This document shows positions 4,763-62,445 of a stretch of 64,000 nt of DNA, piece after piece. Below the pieces are notes generated by a model, which was not told the DNA's origin, did no database searches, and saw only the letters and a list, made by a program, of their open reading frames with translations. The stretch lies in NCBI GenBank assembly GCA_000004985.1, contig GG738850.1; one strand, given 5' to 3'. Position 1 is the stretch's first letter. The number at the start of each line of letters is the position of its first letter. The translations under genes and the position numbers were made by a program. Source of the stretch: Naegleria gruberi. Taxonomy: Eukaryota.

Positions 4763-5137
4763 TTATGAAAATGGTGGTCCTCAATGCATCAATAAAAACA
4801 TGCTTCCAACTTTGAAGCATATGTTGATAATAAGTAAAATCTTTATTTGCAAAAAGACTACAGCACCACAGGTTCCCAAGTTGTCTCCAACCTCAGTACT
4901 GATGTGGCTCGACGATGCTTAACTTCTCAAATCGGACGGGATGAGGTGCATGAATCGTGATATGGCTGTAGCATTCACTTTCGCAATTTCTGAAATTTTA
5001 ATCTAGCACAATCAGTTTTTGTTTCATTTATTGAGCCTTTTTCAAATTAATTATGGAAACAAACCTCTGTCATTCACCACCGAATGTTTTCTTTTTGGAT
5101 GGAATTACTTAGAATAATTTATTCTATTGACCAGATA

Positions 5138-33655: not shown

Positions 33656-35953
33656 ATGTTTAGAATTTCTCCTTCGACTGGAACACCTCCAAGACCAGTT
33701 ATGAATAATCAATTATCATCACAACAACAACACTATTCTAATACTAACAATACTACTCCTAATAATACAACTAATCAAAAGCAACAACTAATGCAACAAG
33801 ATAATCAATTATCATCTCCTACCACTACTCAATATCCATCACCTCCAACTCTTTCAATGTTTACCAATTCAACTACTTCAAGTAGTAGTGACAATGCCAG
33901 TACTAACGACAGTTATATGAGTGATGATAGTTCGAATTTGAGGAGAAGAAGAGACTTTGATGCACTCTCCTCAATGGAAAATACCACACCACAAGGAACA
34001 ATGGAAGAAGAGAATCAAACAGTTTCATTTTCCAATATTTCTGCAGCACAACCAACTAGAAACAAGAAGAGAAAAAAGAATTCCTCACCAAACTTTGAAG
34101 AGATTTCATCCCCAAGTTCTCCTAAAGGACGTGATACAAATAATATTGAGCTTGATGACTCTTTCGAACAAAAGTTTTCTAAAGCAATTTCCAATTTTGG
34201 TGACGATAGTCCTGTACTCAATAATGATTCATGTTTTACCAATAGATATACAGGACCTAAATTTGAATCTACCAATAAGACAATAGCAAGATATGGTGAC
34301 GATAATAGAACATTCATTGTTGGTCTTCTTGGTTATGAATTCAATGAGAGTGAAATTGAAGTAACACCAAGTAATGATTCGACAGGTCTATTGCAACGTT
34401 TGGGAAGAATGTTTAGTAATATATTCTCATCAACCAGTCTCAATCAAACACTTCCATTCAATAATGCTAATGCTGTCACGACCAGTAATTCAACTCTGAG
34501 ACATCATACACTTCAAGAAGATCACACTGTTATCCATTCGAATCCTGCTGTAGAATGTGAGTTGATTTCTCATTGGAGAGAAGTTCCACTCTTGAGAAAT
34601 GTTAAAATCAAACAAATTTCATGTGGTGGTTATCACGTTTTACTTTTAACTGAAGATAATGTTGTATACACATCTGGGTGGAATAAGTATGGTCAATTAG
34701 GTACAAGTAAGAGTGGGTCAAGTAGCAAGATTGTAAAGATTGTAGAGAATGAACAAACTGATTATTGTGAAGTTCAATCCTTCCATAGAATTGAATTCCC
34801 TGAAAAGATTATTTCACTGAATGCCAGTGGTAGACACAGTTTGTTTTTGAGTGAGAGTGGAAGAGTTTATGGAACTGGTTGTAATTTGCATGGAAGAATG
34901 GGATCTGAATTCATTGAACCAGAAGAATTGGGATTGAAGCAATCCCAAGACTTACAACAAGTTACTGGAAATCAAATACTAGAACCAAATATTAATTGTG
35001 GTGTTTTCTCTCCAATTCTTTTGGGAGGAATTTTGAAACAAAAGAGAGCTTACTATGTTGGTAAAGCATTTTGGCACTCTATCATTGCAACCTGTGATGG
35101 AGGAGTTTATGTAATGGGACAAAGTGATGAAGGCAAGCTGGGAATTGGCTCTGTAAAGGCTAATCCAATTGACCAAGATACACATTGTTATGAACCAACA
35201 GAGATTATAGAATTGAGAGGAAGAGAAATCATTGAAGCTGAAGGTGGAGCATGGCACACAATTTTCCTTACAAAGGCCAAGTCAAATGAGCTCAATAATG
35301 ATTTATGGGTGTGTGGAAGTAACTATTGGGGTCAACTAGCTCTTCCACCAATTGGAAATAAGCCCGTAACAAGCTTTTTGGTTCCAGTAATTCATCCATT
35401 CTTTAGTGGAAAAAGAGATCCATCTAAGAATGCAGTTCAAATCAGTGCTGGGTCAAACTTTAACGCAGTTTTGACTGAAGATGGTTCTATTTATTGCTTT
35501 GGTTGTGGAAGTAGTGGTAAAACTGGATTGGGTCATGCCAGAACTGTTAGAACTCCAATTAAGGTCAAATCAATTCCAAAGGATGTTATCAAAATTTCAA
35601 CAGGATCAAATCATTTATCTGTAATTACAAAGAGTGGAGAATTGTATAGTGTTGGATGGAACTTTTACGGACAATGTGGTTATGATTCAGACATTTCCAA
35701 TATTTCGAGAGTCGAAGATACTAAAACTGAACTGTCTCCTTCTTGTGATGATATGGTAGAGAGCTACATTATGCCAAGAATTAGAAGACTCACTGGAGTG
35801 GAGGTGAACTCTGTTGGCAGTGGTGCCTATTTTACAATAATTACAACAAGTTCGACAAGTAATCCAATCATTAGAAAGCAAAAAGAAGCAAAATTCAAGG
35901 GAATACAAGTACGAAGAGGCTTTAATGATATTTCAGTTAGATGTACAAAATAA
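33656..35953 (+). CDS. RCC1-repeat (RLD) protein with a long disordered N/S/T/Q-rich N-terminus, 765 aa
   Basis: The C-terminal half has repeated RCC1 blade signatures: ISCGGYHVLLLTEDNVVYTSGWNKYGQLG, ASGRHSLFLSESGRVYGTGCNLHGRMG, SAGSNFNAVLTEDGSIYCFGCGSSGKTG and STGSNHLSVITKSGELYSVGWNFYGQCG. Confidence 0.7.
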   Translation: MFRISPSTGTPPRPVMNNQLSSQQQHYSNTNNTTPNNTTNQKQQLMQQDNQLSSPTTTQYPSPPTLSMFTNSTTSSSSDNASTNDSYMSDDSSNLRRRRDFDALSSMENTTPQGTMEEENQTVSFSNISAAQPTRNKKRKKNSSPNFEEISSPSSPKGRDTNNIELDDSFEQKFSKAISNFGDDSPVLNNDSCFTNRYTGPKFESTNKTIARYGDDNRTFIVGLLGYEFNESEIEVTPSNDSTGLLQRLGRMFSNIFSSTSLNQTLPFNNANAVTTSNSTLRHHTLQEDHTVIHSNPAVECELISHWREVPLLRNVKIKQISCGGYHVLLLTEDNVVYTSGWNKYGQLGTSKSGSSSKIVKIVENEQTDYCEVQSFHRIEFPEKIISLNASGRHSLFLSESGRVYGTGCNLHGRMGSEFIEPEELGLKQSQDLQQVTGNQILEPNINCGVFSPILLGGILKQKRAYYVGKAFWHSIIATCDGGVYVMGQSDEGKLGIGSVKANPIDQDTHCYEPTEIIELRGREIIEAEGGAWHTIFLTKAKSNELNNDLWVCGSNYWGQLALPPIGNKPVTSFLVPVIHPFFSGKRDPSKNAVQISAGSNFNAVLTEDGSIYCFGCGSSGKTGLGHARTVRTPIKVKSIPKDVIKISTGSNHLSVITKSGELYSVGWNFYGQCGYDSDISNISRVEDTKTELSPSCDDMVESYIMPRIRRLTGVEVNSVGSGAYFTIITTSSTSNPIIRKQKEAKFKGIQVRRGFNDISVRCTK

Positions 35954-35955
35954 AA

Positions 35956-37500
35956 CTAAATAATAATCAAATCAGATAATTGTTTGTGTTGGGTTGTATG
36001 GAGTAACTTTTCAAAGAAATCAAGAATACTACAGCTTAGACCAGTTCTTTTCACATAAATATTTTGACTACTGTTGCATGAATAGACTTGCAAGGAGTAC
36101 TGTTTTAGAGAATCGAATAAAATAGGTTTTGGTATTTCATTAACAATTACTACTCTTCCAATTAATGAGTGTGAGTGTTGGTACATGATTTGGAAATAAT
36201 AGAGTTGATTCTTAGATTGAAGAATTATGGCATCAGAGGTTATATAAACCTGTCTAATGGCAATATTATGTTTGTTGAAGTAATCTAGTTCATAAAAACC
36301 AATTGCTTCTTGTTTAGGTAGCTTTCTACTTCCAATATTTTGAATTGTTGAAAATACCCTTCCCTTATTAGTAATTGCAACAGTGAAATATTGACCACAA
36401 TTCACTTCCTTAATCTTATCAATATTATAATCAAATTCATTCAATGTTACTTTCATCACATCTATAATACAAATATATTCCTTCTTTTTTCCAGTTTGTT
36501 GATAAGTATTATCTCCACACACATACAAATATCCATTCAATGTTAAGAATACAGAATGATAAAGTCCACATTTGATATCTACCACTTGATCCTTACTTGA
36601 TTTTGGTAATATCTTAATTTCTGTCAATACATTCGAATAGTTATTGAGAACACTCCATTGATTAGATTCAGAACTTCCAAATCCGAGAACCTTCCTCTTT
36701 CCAGTGCTCCTTTCTCTCACCAGAATGAGAACATGTCCACATCCTGCTGCAATTTTCTCAGCATGAAACAAACTCTTATCAATATCCAAAACTGATCCAA
36801 TCAGAGCTCCATTCTTGTTCTTTACCTTTTTAGTTGCCAATGATTTACAATCTGAAAAAACTCTACCATCATGAGTTAAATAGACACTTTCATCCTCAAA
36901 ACATGCAATTGAAACAATAGTATTGAATGATTTTCCGTCGACCATTTCATATCCTTTCTGAATAAATTCCTCCAAATCATTCAATCTTTTAAAATGTGGC
37001 ATTCGATCAGACTTTGAATATTTCCACATAAATAACATGAATGGAATTTCAGTAGCAGAATTCATATTGGCACTACTATTAGAACCATTGAATGGTTGAC
37101 CATTCTTGTCCACCATTACCACTAAAATTCGTGAACTGCCAGCAATCATTGAAACGTTACATGGCATTGATTGACCTTTTTTCACAATACTCAACTCAAC
37201 TCTATCCAATACATGATATAATTCTTTACCATCATATCTATTTGTTGAAAGTATTTCCTCCGATGGCACACTTGCAAATTTCGTTGGGGTGAAAATTAAT
37301 TGTTCCATTTGATCGAAATTCTTTGCAAGCTTTTTTCTATTAGAATTTGGTGCATTTTTACTGAAAATGTAATTAGTAAAGAGGGAACTGTCGTGTTGTT
37401 GCTGTAGTTGGTCTTGAATCATTTTTTTTTTGTAATTTACATAAATTTCGAAATTGAACTCATTTTGATATTCAATGCTTTGAATATGAATAATTTTCAT
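35956..37500 (-). CDS. RCC1-like beta-propeller protein, 514 aa
   Basis: Degenerate RCC1-like blades are present: AAGCGHVLILVRERSTGKRKVLGFGSSESNQW, KCGLYHSVFLTLNGYLYVCGDNTYQQTG and NCGQYFTVAITNKGRVFS. Its stop lies 2 bp from the stop of the preceding RCC1 gene, which is convergent. Confidence 0.5.
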   Translation of the reverse strand: MKIIHIQSIEYQNEFNFEIYVNYKKKMIQDQLQQQHDSSLFTNYIFSKNAPNSNRKKLAKNFDQMEQLIFTPTKFASVPSEEILSTNRYDGKELYHVLDRVELSIVKKGQSMPCNVSMIAGSSRILVVMVDKNGQPFNGSNSSANMNSATEIPFMLFMWKYSKSDRMPHFKRLNDLEEFIQKGYEMVDGKSFNTIVSIACFEDESVYLTHDGRVFSDCKSLATKKVKNKNGALIGSVLDIDKSLFHAEKIAAGCGHVLILVRERSTGKRKVLGFGSSESNQWSVLNNYSNVLTEIKILPKSSKDQVVDIKCGLYHSVFLTLNGYLYVCGDNTYQQTGKKKEYICIIDVMKVTLNEFDYNIDKIKEVNCGQYFTVAITNKGRVFSTIQNIGSRKLPKQEAIGFYELDYFNKHNIAIRQVYITSDAIILQSKNQLYYFQIMYQHSHSLIGRVVIVNEIPKPILFDSLKQYSLQVYSCNSSQNIYVKRTGLSCSILDFFEKLLHTTQHKQLSDLIII

Positions 37501-44777: not shown

Positions 44778-47249
44778 TCATCTTTTGATTTTATATTCTC
44801 CCCCGTCGCATTCCAGAACTTCTTCCTTTACAAGGATATTCAAGAATGAACTCAGTTCAGAAAGTGATTTGTCGAATGGAGGTAAAGGATCAAGAGCAAA
44901 CATTGCCAACATGTTATGAATTTTGGCAAGTGGCATGCTATCAAAGTTTTCAATCATATTAATGATAATATCTTGATAAACTCTGAGTTCTTCTTCTTGA
45001 CTTTGAGCAGTTGTCATCTCTTCCATGTTTTCATCTTCTCCTTGTTCAGTGGCGGCAGAAGTCAGACTATCCACTAATCTGTACGTCTTATTTCCCTCAT
45101 CTATAATAATTCCTCTCTTTACCCAAGTATTAATACGTTTTTGGAATGTTTTATCGTCAATCTTCATCATTTCCATTATTTCATCCATAGTCCAAACATT
45201 TCTATCAGAGAAGTGGAATAGAATAGATGCAGCAACAGGATGAATGTTGGTGAGCTCTAGCTCTTCACCTCCAATTTCAATATCAAAATCTATTGAACCC
45301 ATTTGCTTTTCCCATAATAATTTTCTAGGGGCCTTAATAGCATTATATTGATTTGCATATTCTTCCATTAATTGTTCAATAAATGGATGCAATAGGATTG
45401 TAGGCTTGTTTTCATCAGTCATCAATTGCTGTCCAGGAGGTGCACCTTGATTGAATACTACCTGAGGCCAATAATTCTTAGATAGCATGAACACACTTGG
45501 AATTTGGGAGTCTGCTTGAATTGAAATTTCAGCAATTTGACTGTTAGAAAGTTCAATGTAATCACTTCTATTTGCAAGTCTAGATTGAATGCCAGAGTTA
45601 AGGAATTTGGAATCGGAAATATCTTTCAGCATAATTTCACAATTTTGCATATTCTTATCACCAAACCTAATTTTCAACAATTCAGCCATCTTGGCTTCGT
45701 TATTGGTATCATAGGTTTCATTCTTCAAAAGTGACTCAGCCAGTATCATTCTATATTCATTAACAAATATTTCCTTATTTCCTCTGTACATTTCTATGAA
45801 TATTTTGATAATATCAGGTTTCTCCATTTTAGATTTAGATGAAGAAGGATGAATAGGTTTTGGATTCCAATTCTCACTTGCATCATCCGAATCGTAATCT
45901 AAACTGCTTTGTGGTTCTGAGGTCAACAATTCACGGTAAAGAGCAGAATCATTTTGTTCATCGGTCATTTCATTAATTATACATCTGACAGCATCTGGAC
46001 GTTTTTCACGTAAGTATTCCTTGATATGGAATGATACGCTTTCTAACGAAATCCCAGTTGGATCAATTATGAGAAGAGATTTGATTATTCTAATAAAAGC
46101 CATTATAATATTCTTGGTTTCTACACTCGCTAAAAGTAATCTAGATTTTACACCCTTACTTAGTTCTTTAACAAGCTCATTATGCATTCCACAATGATTT
46201 AAACAGTCCTTTAAATCCGTTATTGCTTGTTGGCTATTTGGGAAATCAATAACGATATCGAAAATTTGACTTATTCTAATCTTGGCTAAATTTTCAAACA
46301 CAAAATAATCAACCTGTGATTTAAGAGTATTGAACATTTCGTGAGAAGAATCGCCACAAAAATAAATTTCCATATACGAATAAATAATTTGTTCTTTCCA
46401 TTGTTGAATATAGGTCAATATTTCCTGTTCAAAGTCAGTTGTTGATACTTCTGTGATTTTCTCTTTGATGGCTGAAAACATGAATGCTATCCAACTGTTT
46501 GAACAAATTGAATTCATGAAATTAGCTCTAAGTAATCTTAATTTGTCACAAAATTGTCTAAAATTTGAAATAATGTCTTCCATCTCCTGAGACGATTCTC
46601 CTGATTCAATACTTGTCGAAAAAGCATTAAAAGTCTCTCTAAAGTATTGTACCATAATTTCTGAGATATTCCCTTTGATTAAATACTCTCTTTGGTCGAT
46701 ATTCAACTTGTAAAATAGAGCTGATTGCACAAATACTATAAATTGTTCTCTCAGTCTCTCTTTAATTTCCAAACAGTTTTCTAATGTCGAAAATACAATT
46801 AAATATCGTTCTGTTATATTACAAATCATATGTACAGCCTGTACCAATGAATTAATATCCGAAATACTATTAAATATTGATACATGATTCTTAATAAAAT
46901 GTTGTCTCATATTTTGAATATATGGTTCAACAATTTGAGTTTTATCCATCACATTCCTCTCTGCCAACAATTTAATTTGCTGAAAACAAATTCCATTCGG
47001 ATTTTCCAACAATTCTGCACAATGAGCTGCATTAATTGCAATAGTTTTTAATAATTCCTGATGACCATCTAGCAACCAATTACTTTTTAAACTAGTCGAT
47101 TCCGAACCCGAACCAGAACCTCCAACACTATATATTTCTTGTTGTTCTTTTTGTATGGATAATGATGATGCTGAGGAACAAGCCTTGTTTAAATTCCCAA
47201 CAGCATTCCAACTTTGCACTTGTTGTGCAAGAATTAAATTGTTCATCAT
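44778..47249 (-). CDS. ANAPC2: Anaphase-promoting complex subunit 2 (cullin-homology protein)
   Basis: It is 823 aa. Colinear APC2 blocks are IFIEMYRGNKEIFVNEYRMILAESLL (APC2 LFQMYRSSKDLFINEYRSLLADRLL), ELLKIRFGDKNMQNCEIMLKDISDSKFLN (ELLKLRFGEAPMHFCEVMLKDMADSRRIN), and the C-terminal WHB LAKIHNMLAMF...GGEYKI (LDRIYNMLRMF...AGVYRL). Confidence 0.8.
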   Translation of the reverse strand: MMNNLILAQQVQSWNAVGNLNKACSSASSLSIQKEQQEIYSVGGSGSGSESTSLKSNWLLDGHQELLKTIAINAAHCAELLENPNGICFQQIKLLAERNVMDKTQIVEPYIQNMRQHFIKNHVSIFNSISDINSLVQAVHMICNITERYLIVFSTLENCLEIKERLREQFIVFVQSALFYKLNIDQREYLIKGNISEIMVQYFRETFNAFSTSIESGESSQEMEDIISNFRQFCDKLRLLRANFMNSICSNSWIAFMFSAIKEKITEVSTTDFEQEILTYIQQWKEQIIYSYMEIYFCGDSSHEMFNTLKSQVDYFVFENLAKIRISQIFDIVIDFPNSQQAITDLKDCLNHCGMHNELVKELSKGVKSRLLLASVETKNIIMAFIRIIKSLLIIDPTGISLESVSFHIKEYLREKRPDAVRCIINEMTDEQNDSALYRELLTSEPQSSLDYDSDDASENWNPKPIHPSSSKSKMEKPDIIKIFIEMYRGNKEIFVNEYRMILAESLLKNETYDTNNEAKMAELLKIRFGDKNMQNCEIMLKDISDSKFLNSGIQSRLANRSDYIELSNSQIAEISIQADSQIPSVFMLSKNYWPQVVFNQGAPPGQQLMTDENKPTILLHPFIEQLMEEYANQYNAIKAPRKLLWEKQMGSIDFDIEIGGEELELTNIHPVAASILFHFSDRNVWTMDEIMEMMKIDDKTFQKRINTWVKRGIIIDEGNKTYRLVDSLTSAATEQGEDENMEEMTTAQSQEEELRVYQDIIINMIENFDSMPLAKIHNMLAMFALDPLPPFDKSLSELSSFLNILVKEEVLECDGGEYKIKR

Positions 47250-49227: not shown

Positions 49228-50490
49228 ATGTCAACATTTAAAAAGTACTCATCAGAAGATATTGCAACACTAACAATTGCTCGTAATATTGGTTCTTGCA
49301 AAGGATGGCATGTTACTAGCGAATTTTTATGTTTTGGAACTATGGAAAGTGAAGGATGTGTTTATGTGTAAGTTTTTCACACTCAATTGACTAGAAAGTG
49401 GTAATAAACAGATATCGAGTTGATAAATTAGATAATTTACAAGAAGCAGTTCACAGTATGGTAAAAAGTCCATTCAATAAGACCTTTCCAGTAACTGTTT
49501 TTTATTTACCAAAATTAGATTTAATATTTGTTGGATATGATAATGGATGCATTGTAATATTTGATGGAAAATCAAGAGAGAAAAAGTCAATTATTAGAGG
49601 TTGTCATCATATTAAAAAGATTCAAGTAATTTACAATAACAAATTGGATAAACATTTACTTGTTGCTGCTTGTAATCAAGGTGAAAAGAGTCATTTACTT
49701 TTTTGGAAGATTACAAAGAATTCAAATCATAATGTTGATTATTCTTCAACTGATTTGAAACAATTTGAGTTTAATTCACAAATTTCAGATTTATATACTA
49801 CTGATATCTTTATTGAATCAATTAATAAGGAAAATAGAGTTTTAATTTGTCCATTAATGGATGATTCATTTAAATTACTTTACAATTTATTTGAACATGA
49901 AATTGTTGAATTACATTTCAATAAGGATCATTTAAATATGAATGGTGGTATTAGTAGTATGTCATTCGATCAAGATAAGGAAGGAATCAATGATTTAGCA
50001 TTAAGTGGAATGTTAAATGGTAAATTCCAAGTTTACAATTTATCAAATGGTACTTTACAAAAAACAATTAAGGCTGAAAAACATAATAGTATTGAATGTA
50101 TTGCATTTGATGGTGCATTAATGAATGTTTGTATTGGTGGAAGTGAAGGAAATGTTTCAATTTACAATATTGAAAATCAAGAACCAATTCTTGTGAAATG
50201 CATTGAAAATTGTCATGATGGATTTATTACAGCAATTGCACAATGTGAAAATTTCTTTACAACAGGTTCACAAGATGGTACCATTAAAGTTCTAGATAAG
50301 GTAAGTTAAATACTCATTGTAAAGTGTTTCAAACAATACAAAGACAAATGGAACATTAATTGTAAACTTGGATCAAAAACATACAAGTTGCATCACTCAT
50401 TTGGAATTTATTGAAGAACATTTATTAATTTCATCAAGTGAAGATGGTACCATTAGAATGCACATTTTAAATATTGCCAAATTAGAATAA
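49228..50490 (+). CDS. WD40-repeat protein of about 391 aa
   Basis: Gene model is join(49228..49367,49412..50300,50344..50490). A 44-nt intron (GTAAGT, phase 2) joins an upstream ATG exon to track ORF 49398..50309. A 43-nt intron (GTAAGT...CAATACAAAG, phase 0) restores the C-terminal blade ...TNGTLIVNLDQKHTSCITHLEFIEEHLLISSSEDGTIRMHILNIAKLE. WD signatures are LIFVGYDNGCIVIFD and FFTTGSQDGTIKVLD. Confidence 0.6.
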
Positions 50491-50495
50491 AAAAA

Positions 50496-51413
50496 ATGTC
50501 ACCAAAGCTTTTCAAAGATTTTGACACTTGTCACGTGTTTAGGTTTTTAAATTTTAAAGAATTATGTAAAATATCACTTGTTTGTAAGAAATGGTTTATT
50601 ACAAGTCGATCGGATTTATTGTGGAAACAACTTTATAGATTTTATCAAATTGATGTTTTTTGTAATCAACCACAAGAATTAAATCAAGTTAAATGTTCAA
50701 TCATTTCGGATTTTACTCTCATGAATATAATGTTGAGATTGGAAAATTTATCAATAGCGGCACATTCAACATCATGTTGTGCTGAAATTTCAGTACCAAT
50801 TTATTATATTGCCATGTTGAAACCTAAAAAACAATTTAAATTGATTTTTGCTTCGGAATATTCATTTTCACGTACATTTGTCAAGTATGTGAATGTGAGT
50901 TTGGATTCAAAATCAATATTTATGCAATATAATCATGACAAATTTCATAATAATTTATTCGAGTTGATTTGTGAACATTATGTGAAGAAAATTATGAAGA
51001 GAATGAAACCTGAAGTTTTTACAGATTTGATAAGGAGTGAAGATATTTCGGATAATAACATTTTGATTAGTAAGAATGAATTTGTGTTTGCCATTTCAAT
51101 TCCATCAATTTATTCGATTTGTTATTGTTTATTTAATGTTCAGACAAGACAATGCTATCATGTTATTACAAGTAATATGTATCCCTATCAATATGCTATT
51201 CGATTTGTACTATTATTACAAGCTCAGTGTAGAGATTCACTTTCAGAATTTGATTTTAATAAGAATTTAACGAAGACAGTAGAGCATTTATTTTCAATTT
51301 TTGAGTTGAACAGGAATAGTGAAGGTCAATTTAAGATTGGGGTTGATAATAATGAACTTTATGAACCAATAACATTTGAAGATATGCATGTAATTGATAT
51401 TAGTGAAATTTAA
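50496..51413 (+). CDS. F-box protein, 305 aa
   Basis: The N-terminal F-box is FDTCHVFRFLNFKELCKISLVCKKWFITSRSDLLWKQLY. The ATG is at 50496. Its stop TAA at 51411-51413 overlaps the stop of the convergent gene, giving a TTAA palindrome. Confidence 0.6.
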   Translation: MSPKLFKDFDTCHVFRFLNFKELCKISLVCKKWFITSRSDLLWKQLYRFYQIDVFCNQPQELNQVKCSIISDFTLMNIMLRLENLSIAAHSTSCCAEISVPIYYIAMLKPKKQFKLIFASEYSFSRTFVKYVNVSLDSKSIFMQYNHDKFHNNLFELICEHYVKKIMKRMKPEVFTDLIRSEDISDNNILISKNEFVFAISIPSIYSICYCLFNVQTRQCYHVITSNMYPYQYAIRFVLLLQAQCRDSLSEFDFNKNLTKTVEHLFSIFELNRNSEGQFKIGVDNNELYEPITFEDMHVIDISEI

Positions 51414-52789
51414 TTTTTACTTCTCTTCAAAATCAAGCATTCATTTGTAATTGATTCAATAATTAAATTTTGAGCCATATTTTGATAAGTTAATTCAATA
51501 TGTACACCACCGTGTTGTTCTACAAATCTCCAAGTTCCGACCATCGTTTCTCCATGGTTTGACATACTGACGTGACCGTGGGAAGAGTATAAAATACATT
51601 CACTAAGAGAGCTAGAGCCCAAGTTTGAATCTCCCAAATGTCTATAAACAGTAGTACCTGTTTGCTCATTACTTTCAGACTTGGACAAAATCCATTGTTT
51701 TTCACATAAAAGCAAAGTATAAGCTTCCTTATTGAAATTTGAATTTCCCTTCAAAATAGCATTAAGGGCTGGTTCTTCGTCAATTGGCTTTGTATGACCT
51801 CCCAAAACATGTCCACCAGTTGTTCTACCACCAGTTACTGGTAAAGTTGGTTCCTCATCTCCACTATCACTTCCATCGTCTACAGGCATTGTGGTTGTTG
51901 GCATTGTTGTATCTGATTTGATAACTACGCCTTTGTTTTTAGTCAATTGTAGAATTACAGAACCTTTTGGAACTAATCCAGCTTGATCAAGAGTTGTGTT
52001 TTGCCAATCTTCCTCGAAATATTCTTTACGAGGGAATGGAGTCAAGATACTATATGCTTCATTAGAATCCAAATGTGAAGAAACAGCTTTGAACAAATCA
52101 GCAAGAGTTCCAGGAGTATTGAGTTGAATCTTTTCAGTACTACCTCTTGGTAATCTAACTTGAATGAGTGCTGATGTTGCAGAACTTTCAGAAGGCTTTG
52201 GAGTTACTGTTGAAGAAGAAGAAGCTGTTGAACTACTAGCAGAAGATGAAGATCCACTCAATCTTGCTTGTTTTTCTTCCTTTTCCTTTTTCATTGCATC
52301 TTTCAAAGCCTTTACTCTCTTCTTTTCTTCCAATTTTTCCTTTCTGATTCTTTCTTGTTCTTTCAATCTTTCTCTTTCTGCAAAAGCTAATTTAGCTTCA
52401 ACAGAATCTCCTTTCAATTTGTTTGGATTTGTATAAATAACAGGAATACTACCACCAGAGTTTAAAATTGATGATGGTTGATTATTTACAGGTTCAGAAG
52501 ATGTTGTTACTACTGGAGTCGGATTGGTTGTTACAGGAGTGCTTGTTGTTGTTGTTGAAGAAGTATCCATAATTTCCTCTTGATCCAATTCAGCAAAGTG
52601 ATCATAAATATATTGAATTGCTTGATCAATAGAAACATTATTAACCATTTGAAGCGCTCTATTAGATTTGTATCTAGAAAAGCCCATATCTACTAGAGTT
52701 GCCGACATTACAGGATTGGCGATCACATAATCATTGTTGTTGGATCCAGTGTTTGGACGTCCTCCGAGTTTGAGTGTTGGTTGAGACAT
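51410..52789 (-). CDS. UBA- and UBX-domain protein (p97/Cdc48 adaptor-like), 459 aa
   Basis: The N-terminal UBA-like segment is VMSATLVDMGFSRYKSNRALQMVNNVSIDQAIQYIYDHF. A charged coiled-coil stretch sits in the middle. The UBX-like ubiquitin fold is ALIQVRLPRGSTEKIQLNTPGTLADLFKAVSSHL...FPRKEYFEEDWQNTTLDQAGLVPKGSVILQL. A C-terminal domain is not identified. Confidence 0.65.
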   Translation of the reverse strand: MSQPTLKLGGRPNTGSNNNDYVIANPVMSATLVDMGFSRYKSNRALQMVNNVSIDQAIQYIYDHFAELDQEEIMDTSSTTTTSTPVTTNPTPVVTTSSEPVNNQPSSILNSGGSIPVIYTNPNKLKGDSVEAKLAFAERERLKEQERIRKEKLEEKKRVKALKDAMKKEKEEKQARLSGSSSSASSSTASSSSTVTPKPSESSATSALIQVRLPRGSTEKIQLNTPGTLADLFKAVSSHLDSNEAYSILTPFPRKEYFEEDWQNTTLDQAGLVPKGSVILQLTKNKGVVIKSDTTMPTTTMPVDDGSDSGDEEPTLPVTGGRTTGGHVLGGHTKPIDEEPALNAILKGNSNFNKEAYTLLLCEKQWILSKSESNEQTGTTVYRHLGDSNLGSSSLSECILYSSHGHVSMSNHGETMVGTWRFVEQHGGVHIELTYQNMAQNLIIESITNECLILKRSKN

Positions 52790-52896: not shown

Positions 52897-54918
52897 TTAA
52901 GGTAATTCTTTCAATAGTGATTGAATAAGTGTTTTAAAATATGATATTGATCTATCCATTTGAGTATCAATGGAGAGAGGTGTTTCATTTCGGAGTAAGT
53001 TGAGAGTGTTCAGAGAAACAAGTTCTCTATGAATGGAAGTGTAAAGTTTGCAATAGGATACATCCTTTGTTAGATGAGCCAATTTGTAACACAATTGTTG
53101 GCTCTTGTGTAAACAAAATGATTTCAGATAGTGTGATAAGGATACTTTCAAATCATCCACTCTATTGTGTTTTAATCCACGTAATTCATGATAATAGGCA
53201 ATATCAGTTTTAGATCCATGAGTGAGAATATGTGAAGAATTAGTCAGATAATCAACATCCTTGTATAAATATAATAATAATCTGTTTTTGTGAGTTTCAA
53301 AATGATTCTTTTCACAGAAATCAATAGCTTTCAATAAATAAGGAAGAATTAGGGCAGTGGTTTCTTCATTCTTTAACAGCTCACAATTTGTTAAATATAC
53401 AGTTACTAGCTGGATAAAATTGAATTCTGTTGATGATTGAAAACAGAGTTTCATCTTTGTGACAGACTCGTGTATGTTATTGTCAAGATGATAGGCTATT
53501 AAAGATTCCAAATATAATAAATCACATGTATCTATTACCAGTGTATTATCCATGATATTTTTGTATTGATTCATTAGTAAATTTACATTTTCTCTATCTC
53601 TCAACTCAATAAAGTGAGTAATAAGCAATCGGTAACATGAACTATCTGATGTTGGAATAGACCTCGAAGATAGTAATTCATAGTCGCTATATAAATCGAG
53701 ACTGGACTTGGTATAACCAATAGAAGATGTTTGATTCTTGATTGAAAGTCTATTGTGACAACTATACAACATCTTATCTCCAATAAGTCTGTAGAAATGA
53801 GCTTTGACATTGGTTAATAATGATTTTGGAAATATTTCAGTTAACAACAAAGGTTTAGATTGATCATAAAGATCCAATGAGTTTTGTTGTTGTAATTGTT
53901 CACATTTACGAATTAAAGAATATATTTGTTGGCAGGCTATTTGATTGTTGAAACCTGTCAGTAACTTGAATTGAATAAAATCCAAAGTAATATAGAATAA
54001 AATAGAAGTGTTATGACTTTGAGCAAACTTGAGTGCCTGAAGAATGAATAATTCAACATTCGAAGATTGATTATGGAAATATTCAATCATTTTGATTTTG
54101 TACAATATTATAAAAGAAAGCAATAGGCAATCATGCTCATTGTTTTGTTGAGATATTTTGATACTTTCCTTTAAAGAGATAGTAGCTTGTTTGTAATATT
54201 TAAAATGATAGTACAGAAGTGCCTTATTCAGTGCCGAATATGATCTATTTTGGAAATAATCATAATAGATATGTACATAGAAATTAGCATTAATAAAATC
54301 CAATTCTCTACAGCTCTGTATATAATTATTATAATAAAGTTTCGGAAATATTTTACTAACACCAATAGGGCTAGTTTTTTTCATACTTCTATTAGAATTA
54401 CTCTCAATAGAATCATTATTTAGCAGCAAAACTTGGGAGTGATTAGATTTAAATCTATTAATACTATCATATAAAGTTTTAACTCCATCAAAAAGTAAAT
54501 TATTAAATAATAAAATAATTTTCCTGAGAAATATTCCATAAATTGAAGTTTTGTTTGCATCAATAGATTTCAATGTATCAAATAATGTTAATAATGCATC
54601 AACACTGTCAATGGTATTGTAAAGTGCGAAAAATCTTGGTATTACTTCGGAATTAATATTTGTTAATTCCGCAATAAATTTATGTATATTTCCATATATT
54701 GGTGTTACTTTATGTTGTATACAATCAATAATAAACTTGTTTACTCCTTCCAAATTTAAATTCTTACATGATACATCCTGAGTAATACTAATTAAAATTG
54801 CTGTACAAATATCATGAGGTGTAATCTTATTGATGGAATATTCTAATAATACTGATGATGGAAGTGAAGGATTGTTTGATGGTATTATTGCTTGTTGATG
54901 CGTTGCAATACCACTCAT
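52897..54918 (-). CDS. ANAPC5: Anaphase-promoting complex subunit 5
   Basis: It is 673 aa. Colinear APC5 blocks are DICTAILISITQDVSC (APC5 YKIAVLVLLNEMSRTG), GIFLRKIILLFNNLLFDGVKTLYDSINRF (GLFLRHMILAYSKLSFSQVFKLYTALQQYF) and ISLKESIKISQQNNEHDCLLLSFIILYKIK (LALQEAIRIAQESNDHVCLQHCLSWLYVLG). The C-terminal half is helical and TPR-like. Confidence 0.65.
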   Translation of the reverse strand: MSGIATHQQAIIPSNNPSLPSSVLLEYSINKITPHDICTAILISITQDVSCKNLNLEGVNKFIIDCIQHKVTPIYGNIHKFIAELTNINSEVIPRFFALYNTIDSVDALLTLFDTLKSIDANKTSIYGIFLRKIILLFNNLLFDGVKTLYDSINRFKSNHSQVLLLNNDSIESNSNRSMKKTSPIGVSKIFPKLYYNNYIQSCRELDFINANFYVHIYYDYFQNRSYSALNKALLYYHFKYYKQATISLKESIKISQQNNEHDCLLLSFIILYKIKMIEYFHNQSSNVELFILQALKFAQSHNTSILFYITLDFIQFKLLTGFNNQIACQQIYSLIRKCEQLQQQNSLDLYDQSKPLLLTEIFPKSLLTNVKAHFYRLIGDKMLYSCHNRLSIKNQTSSIGYTKSSLDLYSDYELLSSRSIPTSDSSCYRLLITHFIELRDRENVNLLMNQYKNIMDNTLVIDTCDLLYLESLIAYHLDNNIHESVTKMKLCFQSSTEFNFIQLVTVYLTNCELLKNEETTALILPYLLKAIDFCEKNHFETHKNRLLLYLYKDVDYLTNSSHILTHGSKTDIAYYHELRGLKHNRVDDLKVSLSHYLKSFCLHKSQQLCYKLAHLTKDVSYCKLYTSIHRELVSLNTLNLLRNETPLSIDTQMDRSISYFKTLIQSLLKELP

Positions 54919-57012: not shown

Positions 57013-57099
57013 TTTTTTGTACTTTTTTTGGCGCCAAAAACATTTCCATTAAGAAAATTATAATGCTGTTCACGAGAAATGATTAATGATATTATTATG

Positions 57100-59341
57100 T
57101 TATGGATTCAGTAATTTACTGAAAAATCCATTGTACTTTTTCACAGCAACTTTTGCAGATTTTTCTCCTTGTTCAGCTAATTTTCTAATCTTTGATATGG
57201 CAGATTGAATTCCAGCATCTGCTGCCTTTTCATAGTAGTGACAAGCTTTGGCTAAATCACGTGGAACATAATTTCCCTCTTCATACATAATTCCAAGCCA
57301 TGCATTTGCATTGATATTGCCACCACTAGCACTCCTGGAAAAGTATTTGAATGCCAATTCTTTATCCACTTTAGTTCCAATGCCCATCAAATGAATTCTT
57401 CCCATATCACACATGGCTGTCATATTTCCATTAGATGCACTCTGTTCATACCAATATTTTGCAGAATCATCATTTTTTACAACACTTCCACAACCATTTT
57501 TAAAGAAATAGGCAACATGTAGTTGACTTTCATGAAATCCTAATTTTGCTGATTTCTGGAAATATTCAAAAGCTTTATCAACATCTTTCTTAACTCCAGT
57601 ACCATTTTCGTACATTAATCCTAATCTATTAAGAGCCCACGGAGTATTACTCTCCAAATAATATTCTGATAAAATTAATTACAATAGATTAATTTTCAAT
57701 AAACTTACTAATAGCATTTCTATAGTTTTGTTTCACACCATACCCATGTTCATGCATTGCTCCTAACAGAAAAGTGGCATTTGAATTGCTATTGTTTGTC
57801 ATTTCAAAATTGCAGCAGTCTAATAATCTCTTGAGATCCTTCTTGTCTGAATAATATTTCAACAAGTGAATGATATTTTGCATGGAATTGAAATCAAAGT
57901 TTCTATGTGTGGTGAAAATTTCAAACATTAATTGAAATGCTTCCTTATAGTTTTTACAATCCATGGCAAGAATAGCTTTTCTCTCACTTTCAGCAATAAA
58001 AGTTTCTGCTCTATCAGAGCTTTTCATTATTAATGGATTGGATAATATGCTTTCGTAGGAAGGTCTTGAGAGAGGATCCTTTGCCAACATTTTGAGCAAT
58101 AGGTCAATAATGGAGCTATCACATTTTGCTAATTTCAACGAGTTTTCAATTTCTTCCATGGAAATGTTAGCACATCTAGAACGTAAATCAAAGGTTAACA
58201 ACTGATAAACAGATACTCCAATTGCAAAGATATCACTCTTAATAGAATAGGGAAGAACCCTCTCATTAGACGAAAGTATTTCAGGTGCTAGGTATTGTTC
58301 CGTTCCAGCCAAACTCAAAGAAGTTAAACTATCTGATATAACAGTACTTCCACCAAAATCCGCAAGTACAATTTCAATCCGATTTCCAATAGGATCAAAC
58401 TTTCTTAGTAGGATATTCAAAGGTTTAATATCTCGATGCACAATTATTCCTCTTTTCTGTTGATTGAAATAATGTAAAGCAGCACACAACTGATAAATAC
58501 ATTGGAATATCATTTCATTGGAAAGAGGTATCTTTTTTTCAATAATGGCCTTTTTCATGCTTCCTAGCTCCATATATTCCATTACAATACAAAATACATC
58601 AAATAATGTAAACATTTCATAAACTTTGATCGAATAATTGTGACTGAACACTATTGTCTTGGTTCCTTCATTAAAATCCATCGTCCCCTCAATACAAGTA
58701 ACTGGAACAACTTTGATTGCTACAATTTTAGAGTCCAACTTTCGAGTTGCTTTAAAAACTTTTCCAAAAGCACCTTCTCCAATTATACTCATCTCTGAAT
58801 ATTGATTCAATAGTACTGAGAGAATTTCACTAGCTCTAGTACTCTTCAAACCCACGATAAGTTCATCATAATTCGAATCAATTGAAGTAGAAACAACAGG
58901 TGCTTCATCATGATGACTTGATTGATTCGTACTATTTTCAGTAGTATTATTATTCGAAAGACTATTTTCCCTACTATCGGTTGATGTACTACTACCACTA
59001 TTACTACTAACAGTACTTTTAGTACTTGTAATACTGCTATTGTTAGTAGAAGTATTGGAAGTGTTACTATTAATTTTCTTTTCATTACTTTCGAATACTA
59101 CTTCAACAATCAGTGGATGATCTAGTTGAGTACTAAATGTCTTCATCATGTTTCTTACATCTGTATCATTTCTGAGTGTAATTAATAAATTTGCCGTTGG
59201 ATGTTTATATTTCAAAAAGAAGTGAATTTCATTTGATGATGAGAGAAGATCTAGCACTTGACTTGTTATGAATTCCAATGTTGAACATTCGTCCAGAAAG
59301 AGGAGAATATTATGAGATAAACACTGAACAATACATTGCAT
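57100..59341 (-). CDS. Ser/Thr protein kinase with C-terminal Sel1-like repeats, about 732 aa
   Basis: Gene model is join(complement(57100..57665),complement(57709..59341)). The 43-nt intron has a GTAAGT donor and TTTTATCAG acceptor, in phase 1. Splicing fuses the kinase ORF to the Sel1 ORF, giving a continuous Sel1 unit ...LLGAMHEHGYGVKQNYRNAIKYYLESNTPWALNRLGLMYENGTGVKKD.... Kinase motifs are GEGAFGKVFKA, VAIKVV, HRDIKPLNILL, ADFGGS and YLAPE. At least four Sel1 units of the form G.MYE.G.GV..D...A..Y follow. Confidence 0.75.
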
Positions 59342-60854: not shown

Positions 60855-62445
60855 ATGTTTAGAGAACAAGAAGAGGAGGAAATTTATCAACATCAACGAA
60901 ATAATCTTGGTCGACATGGAAACAATGAAGATGATGGTACTCTGACAGAGTATCATCATCGTGATAAATCTTCATCAATTCTACAATTCCTGAGGAATAA
61001 CAAGATTTATATTGCAATCTTTATTGTAGCCTTTATTATTTGTATTGGATTATTAATTGGATTAATTGTTTATAATATTGTTAGTAAACCAAATATTGTA
61101 GATCATGTTTCGGATAGGAGAGTCTTGATGATCTCTATTGATGGATTCCGACCTGATTATTTGGACATGTTTAAGGATGATTGTAAGAATTTAACTCGTG
61201 TATTTATGGATGGTGTTAGAGCCAAGACAATGAAACCAATATTTCCATCAAAAACATTTCCAAATCACTATACGATTGTTACTGGACTTTATGCTGAATC
61301 TCATGGAATAGTTTCAAATTCGTAAGTTTGTTAAATTGATTATTCAACCTGGAAAATGTTAGTTTTTATGATCCAAATTTCAATGCCAAGTTTAGTATGG
61401 GATCTGATGAATCCATCAAATCTAGATGGTGGTTAGGAGAACCTATTTGGGTAACTGCTGAAAAACAAGGAATGGTTGCAGGAAGTTTCTTCTGGCCTGG
61501 CTCAGATGTGGAAATTCAAGGAAGATATCCAACCTATTACAAGAAATATGATGGAGATGTTGATTATGAGACAAGAGTCAAAACTGTATTTGAATGGTTA
61601 GATTCAGATAAACCACCACAAATTGTATTGACCTATTTCAGTGCTGTGGATACTGCAGGTCACAAGTAAGTTTTATTTTTCATGTTTACAATATGGATAC
61701 AAATATAATAATAATTAAATAACTATAGATATGGACCTATTTATTCTGAAGAATTGAGGGCAGCTGTAAAAGAAGTGGATAATTCTATAGGACTTGTTCT
61801 TTCACAATTGGAAAAGAGAAATTTGACTGATAAAGTAGATTTGATTATTGTGAGTGATCATGGTATGGCTTACACTCCAGAATCAAAGATTGTGAGAATG
61901 ACAGATATATTAGGAAGAAATGTTTTGGTTGGAGATGAAATTTTCAGTATGAATGATGGTCCATTCTTTGATTTGTATATTAAGGACAAATCTAAAGTTG
62001 AACCCCTATTTAATGAATTAGCGAATTCAATTCAAAATAATAGTACCTTCTCAACTGCCATTCAAGGTGTTTATTTGAAGAATAATATGCCAGATAGATT
62101 CCATTTTGTAAATTCTGACAGAATTCCAGATATTACCATACTTGCCAAACCTGAATACTCGATTTTAAGATATTCTACTAGTACCTTGTACGGTAAGTGC
62201 TAATAATTTAGTATTATTGATCTTAATGCGATTTAAAAGGAAATGGAAATCATGGATGGGATAATGAATCAGATTTAATGGGTAGCTTATTTATTGCCAG
62301 AGGAAAGCACTTTAAACAAGGGTTTACATCTGAGGAATCTGTTAGAAATTTGGATGTTTATTCATTACTTTGTAAATTATTGAATTTAACACCAGCTCCA
62401 AATAACGGTACTGCTGATAATTTTTCGTCCTTCTTGAAACTCTAA
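60855..62445 (+). CDS. Ectonucleotide pyrophosphatase/phosphodiesterase (ENPP) family, type II signal-anchor, about 479 aa
   Basis: Gene model is join(60855..61321,61363..61665,61729..62192,62240..62445). Three GTAAGT introns of 41, 63 and 47 nt are in phases 2, 2 and 1. Together they fuse four track ORFs. The catalytic-domain signatures are ISIDGFRPDY, KTFPNHYTIVTGLYAESHGIVSN, WW.GEPIWVTAEKQG and FFWPGSDVEIQG. The others are SDHGMAY, GNHGWDNESDLMGSLFIARG and LLNLTPAPNNGT, nearly identical to ENPP1 MCDLLNLTPAPNNGT. The N-terminal TM is IYIAIFIVAFIICIGLLIGLIVYNIV. The first ATG is at 60855. Confidence 0.8.

What the first reader, a model, noticed from the sequence alone, without database searches (positions are those of the whole stretch)
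57100..59341. Protein kinase fused to C-terminal Sel1-like repeats through a 43-nt intron
Splicing at GTAAGT and TTTTATCAG joins a canonical Ser/Thr kinase domain in frame to a run of Sel1-like (TPR-related) repeats. The first Sel1 unit is actually split by the intron and is completed only after splicing. Kinase-Sel1 is an uncommon architecture. The N-terminal 100 aa also look like a small ubiquitin-like or PB1-like fold. This could be a lineage-specific signalling scaffold.
Basis: partly seen in the sequence, partly recalled or inferred. Interest (0 to 1): 0.5.

Follow-up and report, generated by a model that had tools for sequence, protein, structure and literature searches.

The report
Naegleria PB1-like kinase with Sel1 repeats

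Summary
On the minus strand, exon 1 (59341..57709), a 43-nt GTAAGT...CAG intron (57708..57666) and exon 2 (57665..57100) give a 732-aa protein. It contains a Pkinase domain (E=4.5e-45) and five Sel1 units (E=1.4e-42).

No transcript data were available, but four indirect lines support splicing:
- Splicing completes Sel1 unit 1 (30.3 bits spliced, 21.8 unspliced).
- Naegleria paralogues align without a break across the junction.
- A near-identical environmental strain has a 6-nt deletion and 2 substitutions inside the intron, against 9 substitutions in 1222 exon nt, 8 of them synonymous.
- Other 41-45-nt GTAAGT introns join ORFs elsewhere in the window.

The N-terminal 87 aa are a divergent PB1-like beta-grasp. 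The AlphaFold model has pLDDT 86, and 10 of the 12 best Foldseek PDB hits are PB1-domain entries. The Pfam score is below threshold, and the canonical PB1 contact residues are missing.

The host is Naegleria, probably N. gruberi. Kinase-Sel1, and PB1-like-kinase-Sel1, recur in N. lovaniensis. Kinase-Sel1 alone also occurs in N. gruberi, Tritrichomonas and early-diverging fungi, and Willaertia has a PB1-like kinase with a weak Sel1-like tail. No close orthologue was found (34% identity at best). This is a new member of a known, uncharacterised family, and interest is low.

The parts
57709..59341 (-). Exon 1 (1633 nt, codons 1-544 plus the first base of codon 545). The ATG is at 59341, with an in-frame TAA two codons upstream.
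   Evidence: Sequence and ORF list; spliced translation.
57666..57708 (-). 43-nt phase-1 spliceosomal intron, GTAAGTTTATTGAAAATTAATCTATTGTAATTAATTTTATCAG. It contains the in-frame TAA (57691..57689) that ends the unspliced ORF.
   Evidence: In the near-identical strain contig L001 the intron is 37 nt (6-nt deletion plus 2 substitutions), with GTAAGT and CAG kept and length still 1 mod 3.
57100..57665 (-). Exon 2 (566 nt; last two bases of codon 545, codons 546-732, stop TAA 57102..57100).
   Evidence: All 5 substitutions against L001 within the exon-2 coding sequence are synonymous.
59081..59341 (-). Residues 1-87: divergent PB1-like beta-grasp domain (strands 2-7, 10-15, 41-46, 53-56, 77-83; helices 22-32, 59-70).
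   Evidence: Pfam PB1 scores 14.6 bits, E=0.033, below the 23.6-bit cut-off. A family HMM built without the query scores it 15.1 bits, against a maximum of 14.1 in 2000 shuffles. The AF2 model has pLDDT 86.4. The best Foldseek PDB hits are mostly PB1 domains, TM 0.57-0.73. The best three hits of a profile search of PDB sequences are MEK5 PB1, E 0.15-0.27.
58832..59080 (-). Residues 88-170: low-complexity spacer rich in Ser, Asn and Thr (23 S, 13 N, 13 T in 83 aa).
   Evidence: no Pfam family there.
58031..58801 (-). Residues 181-437: eukaryotic Ser/Thr protein kinase domain with all catalytic motifs: GEGAFG 188-193, VAIK 207-210, HRDIKPLN 302-309, DFG 328-330, APE 352-354.
   Evidence: Pfam Pkinase 154.5 bits; motif positions. 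No clear kinase group: the best PDB relatives are CAMK, ULK, NEK and STE20 kinases, all at E 1e-17 to 1e-20.
57806..58030 (-). Residues 438-512: linker between the kinase domain and the Sel1 repeats, with no family match.
   Evidence: No Pfam hit (protein 7). It lies inside the single collinear BLAST alignments to paralogues.
57655..57781 (-). Sel1 unit 1 (residues 521-548). The intron interrupts it in helix B, and the split codon is K545.
   Evidence: Spliced 30.3 bits against unspliced 21.8 bits; alignment to paralogue repeats 'A..WYEKAA'.
57211..57636 (-). Sel1 units 2-5 (residues 555-587, 590-625, 628-661, 664-696).
   Evidence: 49.8, 29.1, 36.5 and 41.8 bits individually. PDB Sel1-repeat proteins and SEL1L match at E down to 4.9e-54.
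57103..57210 (-). Residues 697-732: C-terminal tail after the last Sel1 unit.
   Evidence: Translation; no family match.

Best explanation
The locus is one two-exon nuclear gene of a Naegleria amoeba, most likely N. gruberi or a very close strain. Removing a 43-nt GT-AG intron gives a 732-aa soluble protein. From N to C terminus it has a divergent PB1-like beta-grasp, a Ser/Asn/Thr-rich spacer, a catalytically intact Ser/Thr kinase domain, a linker with no family match, and five Sel1 repeats.

It belongs to a fast-evolving family of kinase-Sel1 proteins, many with the PB1-like domain as well, that is expanded in vahlkampfiid heteroloboseans (Naegleria, Willaertia).

The mechanism is inferred, not shown. 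The kinase is the catalytic unit. The C-terminal Sel1 solenoid probably serves as a docking platform for a substrate or regulator and may pack against the kinase, as the SEL1-like C-terminal domain of eEF-2K does for eEF-2. The N-terminal PB1-like domain probably tethers the kinase to a partner, as PB1 domains do in MEK5, MEKK2/3 and aPKC-Par6. Because the canonical PB1 contact residues are absent, any such contact would be non-canonical.
For: Gene model:
- The frame is restored only by the 57708..57666 intron.
- Sel1 unit 1 gains 8.5 bits and 4 HMM positions on splicing.
- Single collinear BLAST alignments run from the kinase through the junction into the Sel1 repeats. Query 179-661 aligns to N. 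gruberi P0445 36-509 (E=1e-53) and query 186-665 to N. lovaniensis P0426 136-629 (E=1e-51). There is no gap at K545.
- In strain contig L001 the intron has a 6-nt deletion and 2 substitutions in 43 nt. The exons have 9 substitutions in 1222 coding nt: 8 synonymous and 1 causing Ser to Asn.
- Other 41-45-nt GTAAGT...AG introns join ORFs in the window. The single intron of N. lovaniensis homologue P0426, inferred by mapping the protein to its locus, also starts with GTAAGT.

Domains: Pfam Pkinase and Sel1; catalytic motifs; PB1-like fold.

Family:
- N. lovaniensis P0362 carries Pfam PB1 (37.7 bits), Pkinase and Sel1 x6.
- P0384, P0431 and P0426 have an N-terminal PB1-like domain by the family HMM (P0384 also a weak Pfam PB1 hit), then Pkinase and Sel1.
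- Willaertia magna P0368 and P0376 carry the PB1-like domain plus a kinase.

Host: the AFG3/FtsH-like ORF is 77% identical to N. fowleri and 76% to Willaertia magna, and window GC is 32.6%.

Against: - No transcript evidence. A 30-nt spliced-junction probe found nothing in the JGI metagenome contigs, and no spliced protein is in the databases.
- No orthologue above 34% identity was found even in an exhaustive search, so function cannot be transferred from any characterised protein.
- The PB1 assignment is below Pfam's threshold for this protein (14.6 against 23.6 bits). The OPCA acidic motif is degenerate ('YKHPTANLLITLRNDTDV'). The beta-1 basic residue found in most family members is Gln here.
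- The AF2 model rests on only 7 sequences, which I chose because they looked PB1-like.
- The intron position is not shared with the one homologue whose gene structure I could read: its intron lies in the HRD motif.
Confidence: 0.8

Rival explanations
1. There is no splicing. The locus holds two adjacent genes: a 550-aa kinase ending at TAA 57691..57689 with a truncated Sel1 unit, and a separate small Sel1 protein translated from the downstream ORF.
For: Prokaryote-style gene callers split it this way: P0241 is a 185-aa Sel1 ORF on contig L001. No transcript proves splicing.
Against: - The downstream ORF has no ATG until inside helix A of Sel1 unit 2 ('LGLMYENG'). Its 185-aa form needs a TTG start.
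- That ORF starts only 31 nt after the upstream stop, which leaves almost no room for a promoter.
- Sel1 unit 1 would be cut in helix B.
- Paralogues are collinear across the junction.
- The 43-nt piece evolves like non-coding DNA while keeping GTAAGT and CAG.
Confidence: 0.04
2. The intron is real but is retained under regulation. Retention places a stop codon in frame and yields a PB1-like-kinase isoform without the Sel1 platform, giving two functional isoforms.
For: In both strains the retained intron leads quickly to a stop: TAA inside the intron in the window, and TAA 20 nt into exon 2 in L001. Intron retention is the commonest form of alternative splicing in non-animal eukaryotes (general knowledge).
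Against: Nothing here points to regulation. The intron-internal TAA is not conserved between the two strains, because the 6-nt deletion removes it. The splice sites match the genome's apparent consensus.
Confidence: 0.1
3. The gene is a decaying or non-functional member of an expanded family (a pseudogene or pseudokinase).
For: The family evolves fast, no orthologue exceeds 34% identity, and the PB1 contact residues are degenerate.
Against: - The 732-codon frame is intact after splicing.
- All catalytic kinase motifs are present.
- 8 of the 9 coding differences from the sister strain are synonymous.
- All five Sel1 units score individually.
Confidence: 0.04

Closest known systems
Naegleria/Willaertia kinase-Sel1 proteins: N. 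lovaniensis C9374_005935 (P0426), C9374_009419 (P0431), C9374_012870 (P0384), C9374_012872 (P0362); N. gruberi NAEGRDRAFT_67434 (P0445); Willaertia magna ABK040_013012 (P0368)
   Same: They have the same order of domains (PB1-like where present, then Pkinase, linker, Sel1 repeats). Single collinear alignments cover kinase, linker and Sel1 at E about 1e-50.
   Different: - Identity is only 27-31%.
- Sel1 copy number varies from 4 to 12, and P0445 lacks the PB1-like domain.
- P0362 and P0384 are much longer and may be merged gene models.
- In the one case I could read, the intron position differs.
- All are 'hypothetical' or 'predicted' proteins, and none has been characterised.
eEF-2K (eukaryotic elongation factor 2 kinase)
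   Same: It is a kinase domain followed by a C-terminal all-helical domain of SEL1-like repeats. That domain docks the substrate and packs on the kinase (PMC9258954).
   Different: - Its catalytic domain is an alpha-kinase, not a eukaryotic protein kinase (ePK).
- It is calmodulin-regulated and has no PB1-like domain.
- I did no sequence comparison with eEF-2K. It serves only as an analogy for how the protein might work, not as a family assignment.
PB1-domain kinases MEK5 (MAP2K5), MEKK2/MEKK3 and atypical PKC
   Same: They have an N-terminal PB1 beta-grasp ahead of a Ser/Thr kinase domain. Their PB1 structures are among the best structural and profile matches to residues 1-87.
   Different: - The match is to the fold only (12-17% identity).
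- The OPCA motif and the beta-1 lysine that make canonical PB1-PB1 contacts are not conserved here.
- The kinase domain does not group specifically with MAP2K, MAP3K or PKC.
- None of these kinases carries Sel1 repeats.
Kinase-Sel1 proteins of Rhizophagus and Mortierella-type fungi, and of Tritrichomonas
   Same: Pkinase and Sel1 sit on one polypeptide: Rhizophagus irregularis 'Skt5p' P0246, Actinomortierella P0429, Tritrichomonas musculus P0510. Kinase and Sel1-like genes are both reported as highly expanded signalling families in Rhizophagus (PMC8647823, PMC6123716).
   Different: These lineages are distant, and identity in the Sel1 region is about 30-36%. The architecture has probably been assembled independently or is ancient. 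No PB1-like domain was seen in them here.

Membership tests
Eukaryotic protein kinase, Ser/Thr type (Pfam PF00069) | Profile match above the curated threshold over the full domain | tested here: met
   154.5 bits against a 31.7-bit cut-off, residues 181-437 on HMM positions 1-262 of 263.
Eukaryotic protein kinase, Ser/Thr type (Pfam PF00069) | Catalytic motifs: Gly-rich loop, VAIK lysine, HRDxKxxN, DFG, APE | tested here: met
   GEGAFG 188-193, VAIK 207-210, HRDIKPLN 302-309, DFG 328-330, APE 352-354.
Eukaryotic protein kinase, Ser/Thr type (Pfam PF00069) | Phosphotransfer activity | not testable with these tools
   Needs recombinant protein.
Sel1 repeat (Pfam PF08238) | Tandem 36-residue units matching the profile above threshold | tested here: met
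   143 bits against a 30.7-bit cut-off, 5 units. The units score 30.3, 49.8, 29.1, 36.5 and 41.8 bits individually. PDB Sel1 proteins and SEL1L match at E 4.9e-54 to 1e-39.
Sel1 repeat (Pfam PF08238) | Alpha/alpha solenoid structure | not tested
PB1 domain (Pfam PF00564) | Profile match above the curated threshold | tested here: not met
   14.6 bits, E=0.033, against a 23.6-bit cut-off. Family members do better: P0362 scores 37.7 bits in the whole-protein scan and 23.7 bits for its isolated third copy, and P0376 scores 23.1 bits.
PB1 domain (Pfam PF00564) | Beta-grasp with beta-beta-alpha-beta-beta-alpha-beta topology that superposes on solved PB1 domains | tested here: met
   AF2 model with pLDDT 86.4 and pTM 0.74. 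Ten of the 12 best Foldseek PDB hits are PB1-domain entries, best E=4e-5, TM 0.57-0.73. This is a predicted structure from a 7-sequence alignment.
PB1 domain (Pfam PF00564) | OPCA acidic motif (type A) or conserved beta-1 lysine (type B) for front-to-back PB1-PB1 contacts | tested here: not met
   The OPCA region reads YKHPTANLLITLRNDTDV, with 2 acidic residues. The beta-1 position that is R or K in 5 of 6 aligned relatives is Gln2 here.
U2-type spliceosomal intron | GT...AG boundaries with a donor consensus shared by the genome's other introns | tested here: met
   GTAAGT...CAG. Six other candidate introns in the window that join ORFs start with GTAAGT, as does the inferred intron of N. lovaniensis P0426.
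U2-type spliceosomal intron | Removal restores one reading frame and a conserved protein sequence | tested here: met
U2-type spliceosomal intron | Spliced transcript observed | tested here: inconclusive
   A junction probe found no contig in the JGI metagenome collection. No RNA-seq was available.
eEF-2K / alpha-kinase family | Alpha-kinase catalytic domain | tested here: not met
   The catalytic domain is a classical Pkinase, and no alpha-kinase family was among the Pfam hits. The resemblance lies only in the layout of a kinase followed by a SEL1-like domain.

The most novel reading that the evidence does not exclude
PB1-like-kinase-Sel1 proteins may form a signalling module specific to heteroloboseans. 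The degenerate PB1-like domains lack both the OPCA motif and the beta-1 basic residue. They might link family members, or link a member to its Sel1-bound substrate, through a non-canonical interface. This would parallel the PB1-scaffolded MEKK2/3-MEK5 cascades of animals, possibly in the amoeba-flagellate-cyst transitions. A smaller add-on is that retention of the 43-nt intron switches the Sel1 platform off.
Probability: 0.3. Interest if true: 0.35.

Novelty: new member of a known kind. Interest (0 to 1): 0.2.

Why it matters
The practical value is modest. It gives a correct gene model for a locus that prokaryote-style gene callers split in two: the database holds only the 185-aa exon-2 ORF. 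It also shows that short (about 40-45 nt) GTAAGT introns need to be modelled in this genome.

Biologically, it adds one member to an uncharacterised family expanded in Naegleria and Willaertia. The family joins a kinase to two protein-interaction modules (PB1-like and Sel1), and I found no paper that describes this three-part layout. If someone studies Naegleria signalling or differentiation, the family is a reasonable candidate set. Nothing here overturns current understanding.

Tried and rejected
- Exact-sequence look-ups of the 550-aa ORF and of the neighbouring APC5 ORF found nothing on record.
- I first suspected a parabasalid, because the window is gene-dense with 33% GC and there was a Tritrichomonas hit. 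I rejected this when the AFG3/FtsH-like ORF proved 77% identical to N. fowleri.
- The first homologue search was swamped by generic kinases. The Sel1-only search was dominated by bacterial and Rhizophagus Sel1 proteins.
- Single-sequence AlphaFold of residues 1-95 gave pLDDT 49 and was not usable. Only the 7-sequence alignment gave a confident model.
- Searching with this protein's own N-terminus and linker against the proteins fetched up to that point found nothing. The PB1-like family had to be assembled by eye and then tested with an HMM built without the query.
- A spliced-junction probe against metagenome contigs found nothing.
- Literature searches for Naegleria with Sel1 and kinase, for a Naegleria kinome, and for PB1 with Sel1 and kinase found no paper on this architecture.
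- The window holds no tandem paralogues.
- The intron position is not shared with N. lovaniensis P0426.
- Two GTTAGT 'introns' from my scan (59011..58844 and 54360..54316) lie inside continuous ORFs, so I treat them as false positives.
Full report
**What is in the sequence**

The feature lies on the minus strand.
- An ATG at 59341 follows an in-frame TAA two codons upstream. It opens a 550-codon ORF that ends at TAA 57691..57689.
- A GTAAGT starts at 57708 and TTTTATCAG ends at 57666.
- Removing these 43 nt (phase 1; the split codon is AAA, K545) joins the ORF to a second open frame that runs to TAA 57102..57100.
- The product is 732 aa.

A scan of every GT[A/T]AGT...AG pair of 25-200 nt that joins open frames of at least 80 codons was run. 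It shows that 57666 is the only acceptor that restores the frame without deleting part of the Sel1 repeats encoded just downstream.

**Domains**

- Pfam on the spliced protein gives Pkinase at residues 181-437 (154.5 bits, E=4.5e-45) and Sel1 in five stretches (143 bits, E=1.4e-42).
- Scored one at a time, the Sel1 units give 30.3, 49.8, 29.1, 36.5 and 41.8 bits.
- Unit 1 (residues 521-548) straddles the intron. With the unspliced C-terminus ('...NAISKFIEN*') it scores only 21.8 bits over HMM positions 2-25. Spliced ('...NAIKYYLES') it scores 30.3 bits over positions 2-29.
- The kinase has every catalytic motif: GEGAFG 188-193, VAIK 207-210, HRDIKPLN 302-309, DFG 328-330, APE 352-354.
- The kinase belongs to no obvious group. 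CAMK, ULK, NEK, STE20 and MAP2K structures all match at E 1e-16 to 1e-20.
- Residues 88-170 are a Ser/Asn/Thr-rich spacer. Residues 438-512 have no family match.

**Is the intron real?**

No transcript data were reachable. A 30-nt probe across the spliced junction found nothing in the metagenome contigs. Four independent indirect lines agree that the intron is real.

1. Splicing completes the Sel1 unit, as described above.
2. Paralogues align in one collinear piece from the kinase through the junction into the Sel1 repeats.
   - Query 179-661 aligns to N. gruberi NAEGRDRAFT_67434 (P0445) at E=1e-53, and query 186-665 to N. lovaniensis P0426 at E=1e-51.
   - In a multiple alignment, 'NAIKYYLES' lines up without a gap with 'KAFEWYEKSA', 'TARHWYERAA' and 'KALEYYEQAA'.
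3. An ENA metagenome contig (L001, 1272 nt, sample ERZ929261) comes from a nearly identical strain and covers window 58364..57093.
   - The exons differ at 9 of 1222 coding positions: 8 synonymous and one causing Ser to Asn.
   - The 43-nt intron carries a 6-nt deletion and 2 substitutions.
   - The intron keeps GTAAGT, CAG and a length of 1 mod 3 (37 nt).
4. The splice signals are typical of this genome.
   - Six other candidate introns in the window join otherwise separate ORFs and start with GTAAGT. Their lengths are 41, 42, 45, 63, 111 and 156 nt.
   - One of them joins a WD40 ORF to an F-box ORF.
   - The single 128-nt intron of N. lovaniensis P0426, inferred by mapping the protein to its locus, also starts with GTAAGT. 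It lies in the HRD motif, so intron positions are not conserved within the family.

The alternative of two separate genes is weak. The downstream ORF has no ATG before the middle of Sel1 unit 2, and it starts only 31 nt after the upstream stop.

**The N-terminal domain**

The evidence is as follows.
- Pfam gives only a sub-threshold PB1 hit (14.6 bits, E=0.033, cut-off 23.6).
- The N-termini of related Naegleria and Willaertia kinases share the same pattern. Some reach or nearly reach the PB1 threshold: P0362 scores 37.7 bits in the whole-protein scan, and isolated segments of P0362 and P0376 score 23.7 and 23.1 bits.
- An HMM built from ten such segments without the query scores the query at 15.1 bits. 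The maximum over 2000 shuffles of the query was 14.1.
- BLAST aligns residues 1-86 to Willaertia P0368 residues 6-94 (E=0.001).
- A profile of the 7-sequence alignment finds MEK5 PB1 structures as its three best PDB sequence hits, though weakly (E 0.15-0.27).
- AlphaFold2 on a single sequence was poor (pLDDT 49). With the 7-sequence alignment it gave pLDDT 86.4, pTM 0.74 and a beta-beta-alpha-beta-beta-alpha-beta topology.
- In the Foldseek search of the PDB, 10 of the 12 best hits are PB1-domain entries: aPKC iota, Par6, NBR1 and MEK5. MEKK2/3 and p40/p67phox PB1 domains follow further down. TM-scores are 0.57-0.73 and the best E-value is 4e-5.

I therefore call the domain PB1-like. It fails two family criteria. 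The OPCA acidic motif is degenerate ('YKHPTANLLITLRNDTDV'). The beta-1 basic residue found in 5 of the 6 aligned relatives is Gln here. Canonical front-to-back PB1 pairing cannot be assumed.

**Host and family**

- The window has 32.6% GC and is gene-dense.
- Its AFG3/FtsH-like ORF is 77% identical to N. fowleri, 76% to Willaertia magna and 100% to an ENA contig from the same sample as L001.
- N. gruberi proteins are in the database (P0445), but none from this window appear. The window is probably N. gruberi itself, or a very close strain, with its own record withheld. This is an inference.
- An exhaustive HMMER search of 1.84 billion representatives with the exon-1 ORF found no orthologue. 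The best hit is a triple-kinase protein of N. lovaniensis at 34% identity.
- At least 10 of the 150 best hits carry a kinase followed by Sel1.
  - Five are from N. lovaniensis, one from N. gruberi, one from Actinomortierella and one is a Tritrichomonas cluster.
  - The other two are an unnamed JGI metagenome protein and one I did not look up.
- Rhizophagus Pkinase+Sel1 proteins also turned up. Kinase and Sel1-like genes are both reported as hugely expanded in Rhizophagus (PMC8647823, PMC6123716).
- The full three-part layout (PB1-like, kinase, Sel1) is present in N. lovaniensis P0362, P0384, P0431 and P0426. Willaertia P0368 has a weaker Sel1 match.
- The architecture is therefore unusual only in comparison with model organisms.

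**Likely mechanism (inferred)**

Nothing about function is shown here. By domain logic this is a soluble signalling kinase with two protein-interaction modules, one on each side of the kinase domain. The nearest worked example for a kinase followed by SEL1-like repeats is eEF-2K. Its SEL1-like C-terminal domain docks the substrate eEF-2 and packs against the kinase domain (PMC9258954). However, eEF-2K is an alpha-kinase, so this is an analogy and not a family assignment. The nearest examples for a PB1 domain ahead of a kinase are MEK5, MEKK2/3 and aPKC, where the PB1 domain links the kinase to its partner (general knowledge; their structures are the hits).

**Rivals**

- Two separate genes with no splicing: about 0.04.
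- Regulated intron retention giving a Sel1-less isoform: about 0.1, and compatible with the main model.
- A decaying pseudogene: about 0.04. This is contradicted by the intact frame, the intact catalytic motifs and the 8:1 ratio of synonymous to non-synonymous differences.

**Verdict**

The observation and most of the interpretation are right. The gene is a new, divergent member of an existing but uncharacterised heterolobosean family. I found no paper that describes the family. Interest is low at 0.2. The main practical gains are a correct gene model and a note that short GTAAGT introns must be modelled in this genome.

Noticed in passing
window 4855..4973 (-): A single 5S rRNA gene (Rfam 96.4 bits, E=1e-19) sits alone among protein-coding genes. 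ARAGORN found no tRNA genes in the 64 kb.
   Followed up: no
window +15060..15101, +50301..50456, +61322..61362, +61666..61728, -19622..19578, -17950..17840: Six more candidate GTAAGT...AG introns (41-156 nt) join otherwise separate long ORFs. The one at 50301 joins a WD40 ORF to an F-box ORF. The one at 15060 would merge two ORFs with no family match (659 and 619 aa) into one 1288-aa protein.
   Followed up: partly
window 74..2920 (-): An AFG3/FtsH-like m-AAA protease (AAA + Peptidase_M41) has an unusually long N-terminal extension. The extension includes a Biotin_lipoyl-like hit at residues 200-275 that is also precomputed for the N. fowleri and Willaertia orthologues.
   Followed up: no
window 44778..47249 (-) and 52897..54918 (-): Two subunits of the anaphase-promoting complex, APC2 (cullin-type) and APC5, lie about 6 kb apart on the same strand. 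A UBA-UBX protein (51410..52789) lies between them.
   Followed up: no
window 33656..35953 (+) and 35956..37500 (-): Two RCC1-repeat genes converge, with their stop codons only about 2 nt apart. Elsewhere, only 87 nt separate the stop of the kinase gene (57100) from the next gene's ATG (57012). Intergenic spacers are very short throughout the window.
   Followed up: no
L001 and L002 (ENA metagenome assembly ERZ929261, run ERR1078381, project PRJEB11402): An environmental metagenome holds contigs 99-100% identical to this window, so a near-identical Naegleria strain was present in that sample. In that assembly the gene was called as two prokaryote-style ORFs.
   Followed up: partly
P0362 (N. 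lovaniensis C9374_012872), residues 946-1217: Three tandem PB1-like copies sit ahead of the last kinase-Sel1 unit of a 2270-aa model that has four kinase-like stretches. Its near neighbour C9374_012870 is another PB1-like-kinase-Sel1 gene. This may be a tandem gene cluster, partly merged by the annotation.
   Followed up: no
L003 3780..5084 (N. lovaniensis PYSW02000026.1): The gene immediately downstream of the PB1-like-kinase-Sel1 gene P0426 is another large Pkinase protein (1136 aa). This hints at local kinase clustering in N. lovaniensis. The window itself has no such paralogues.
   Followed up: no
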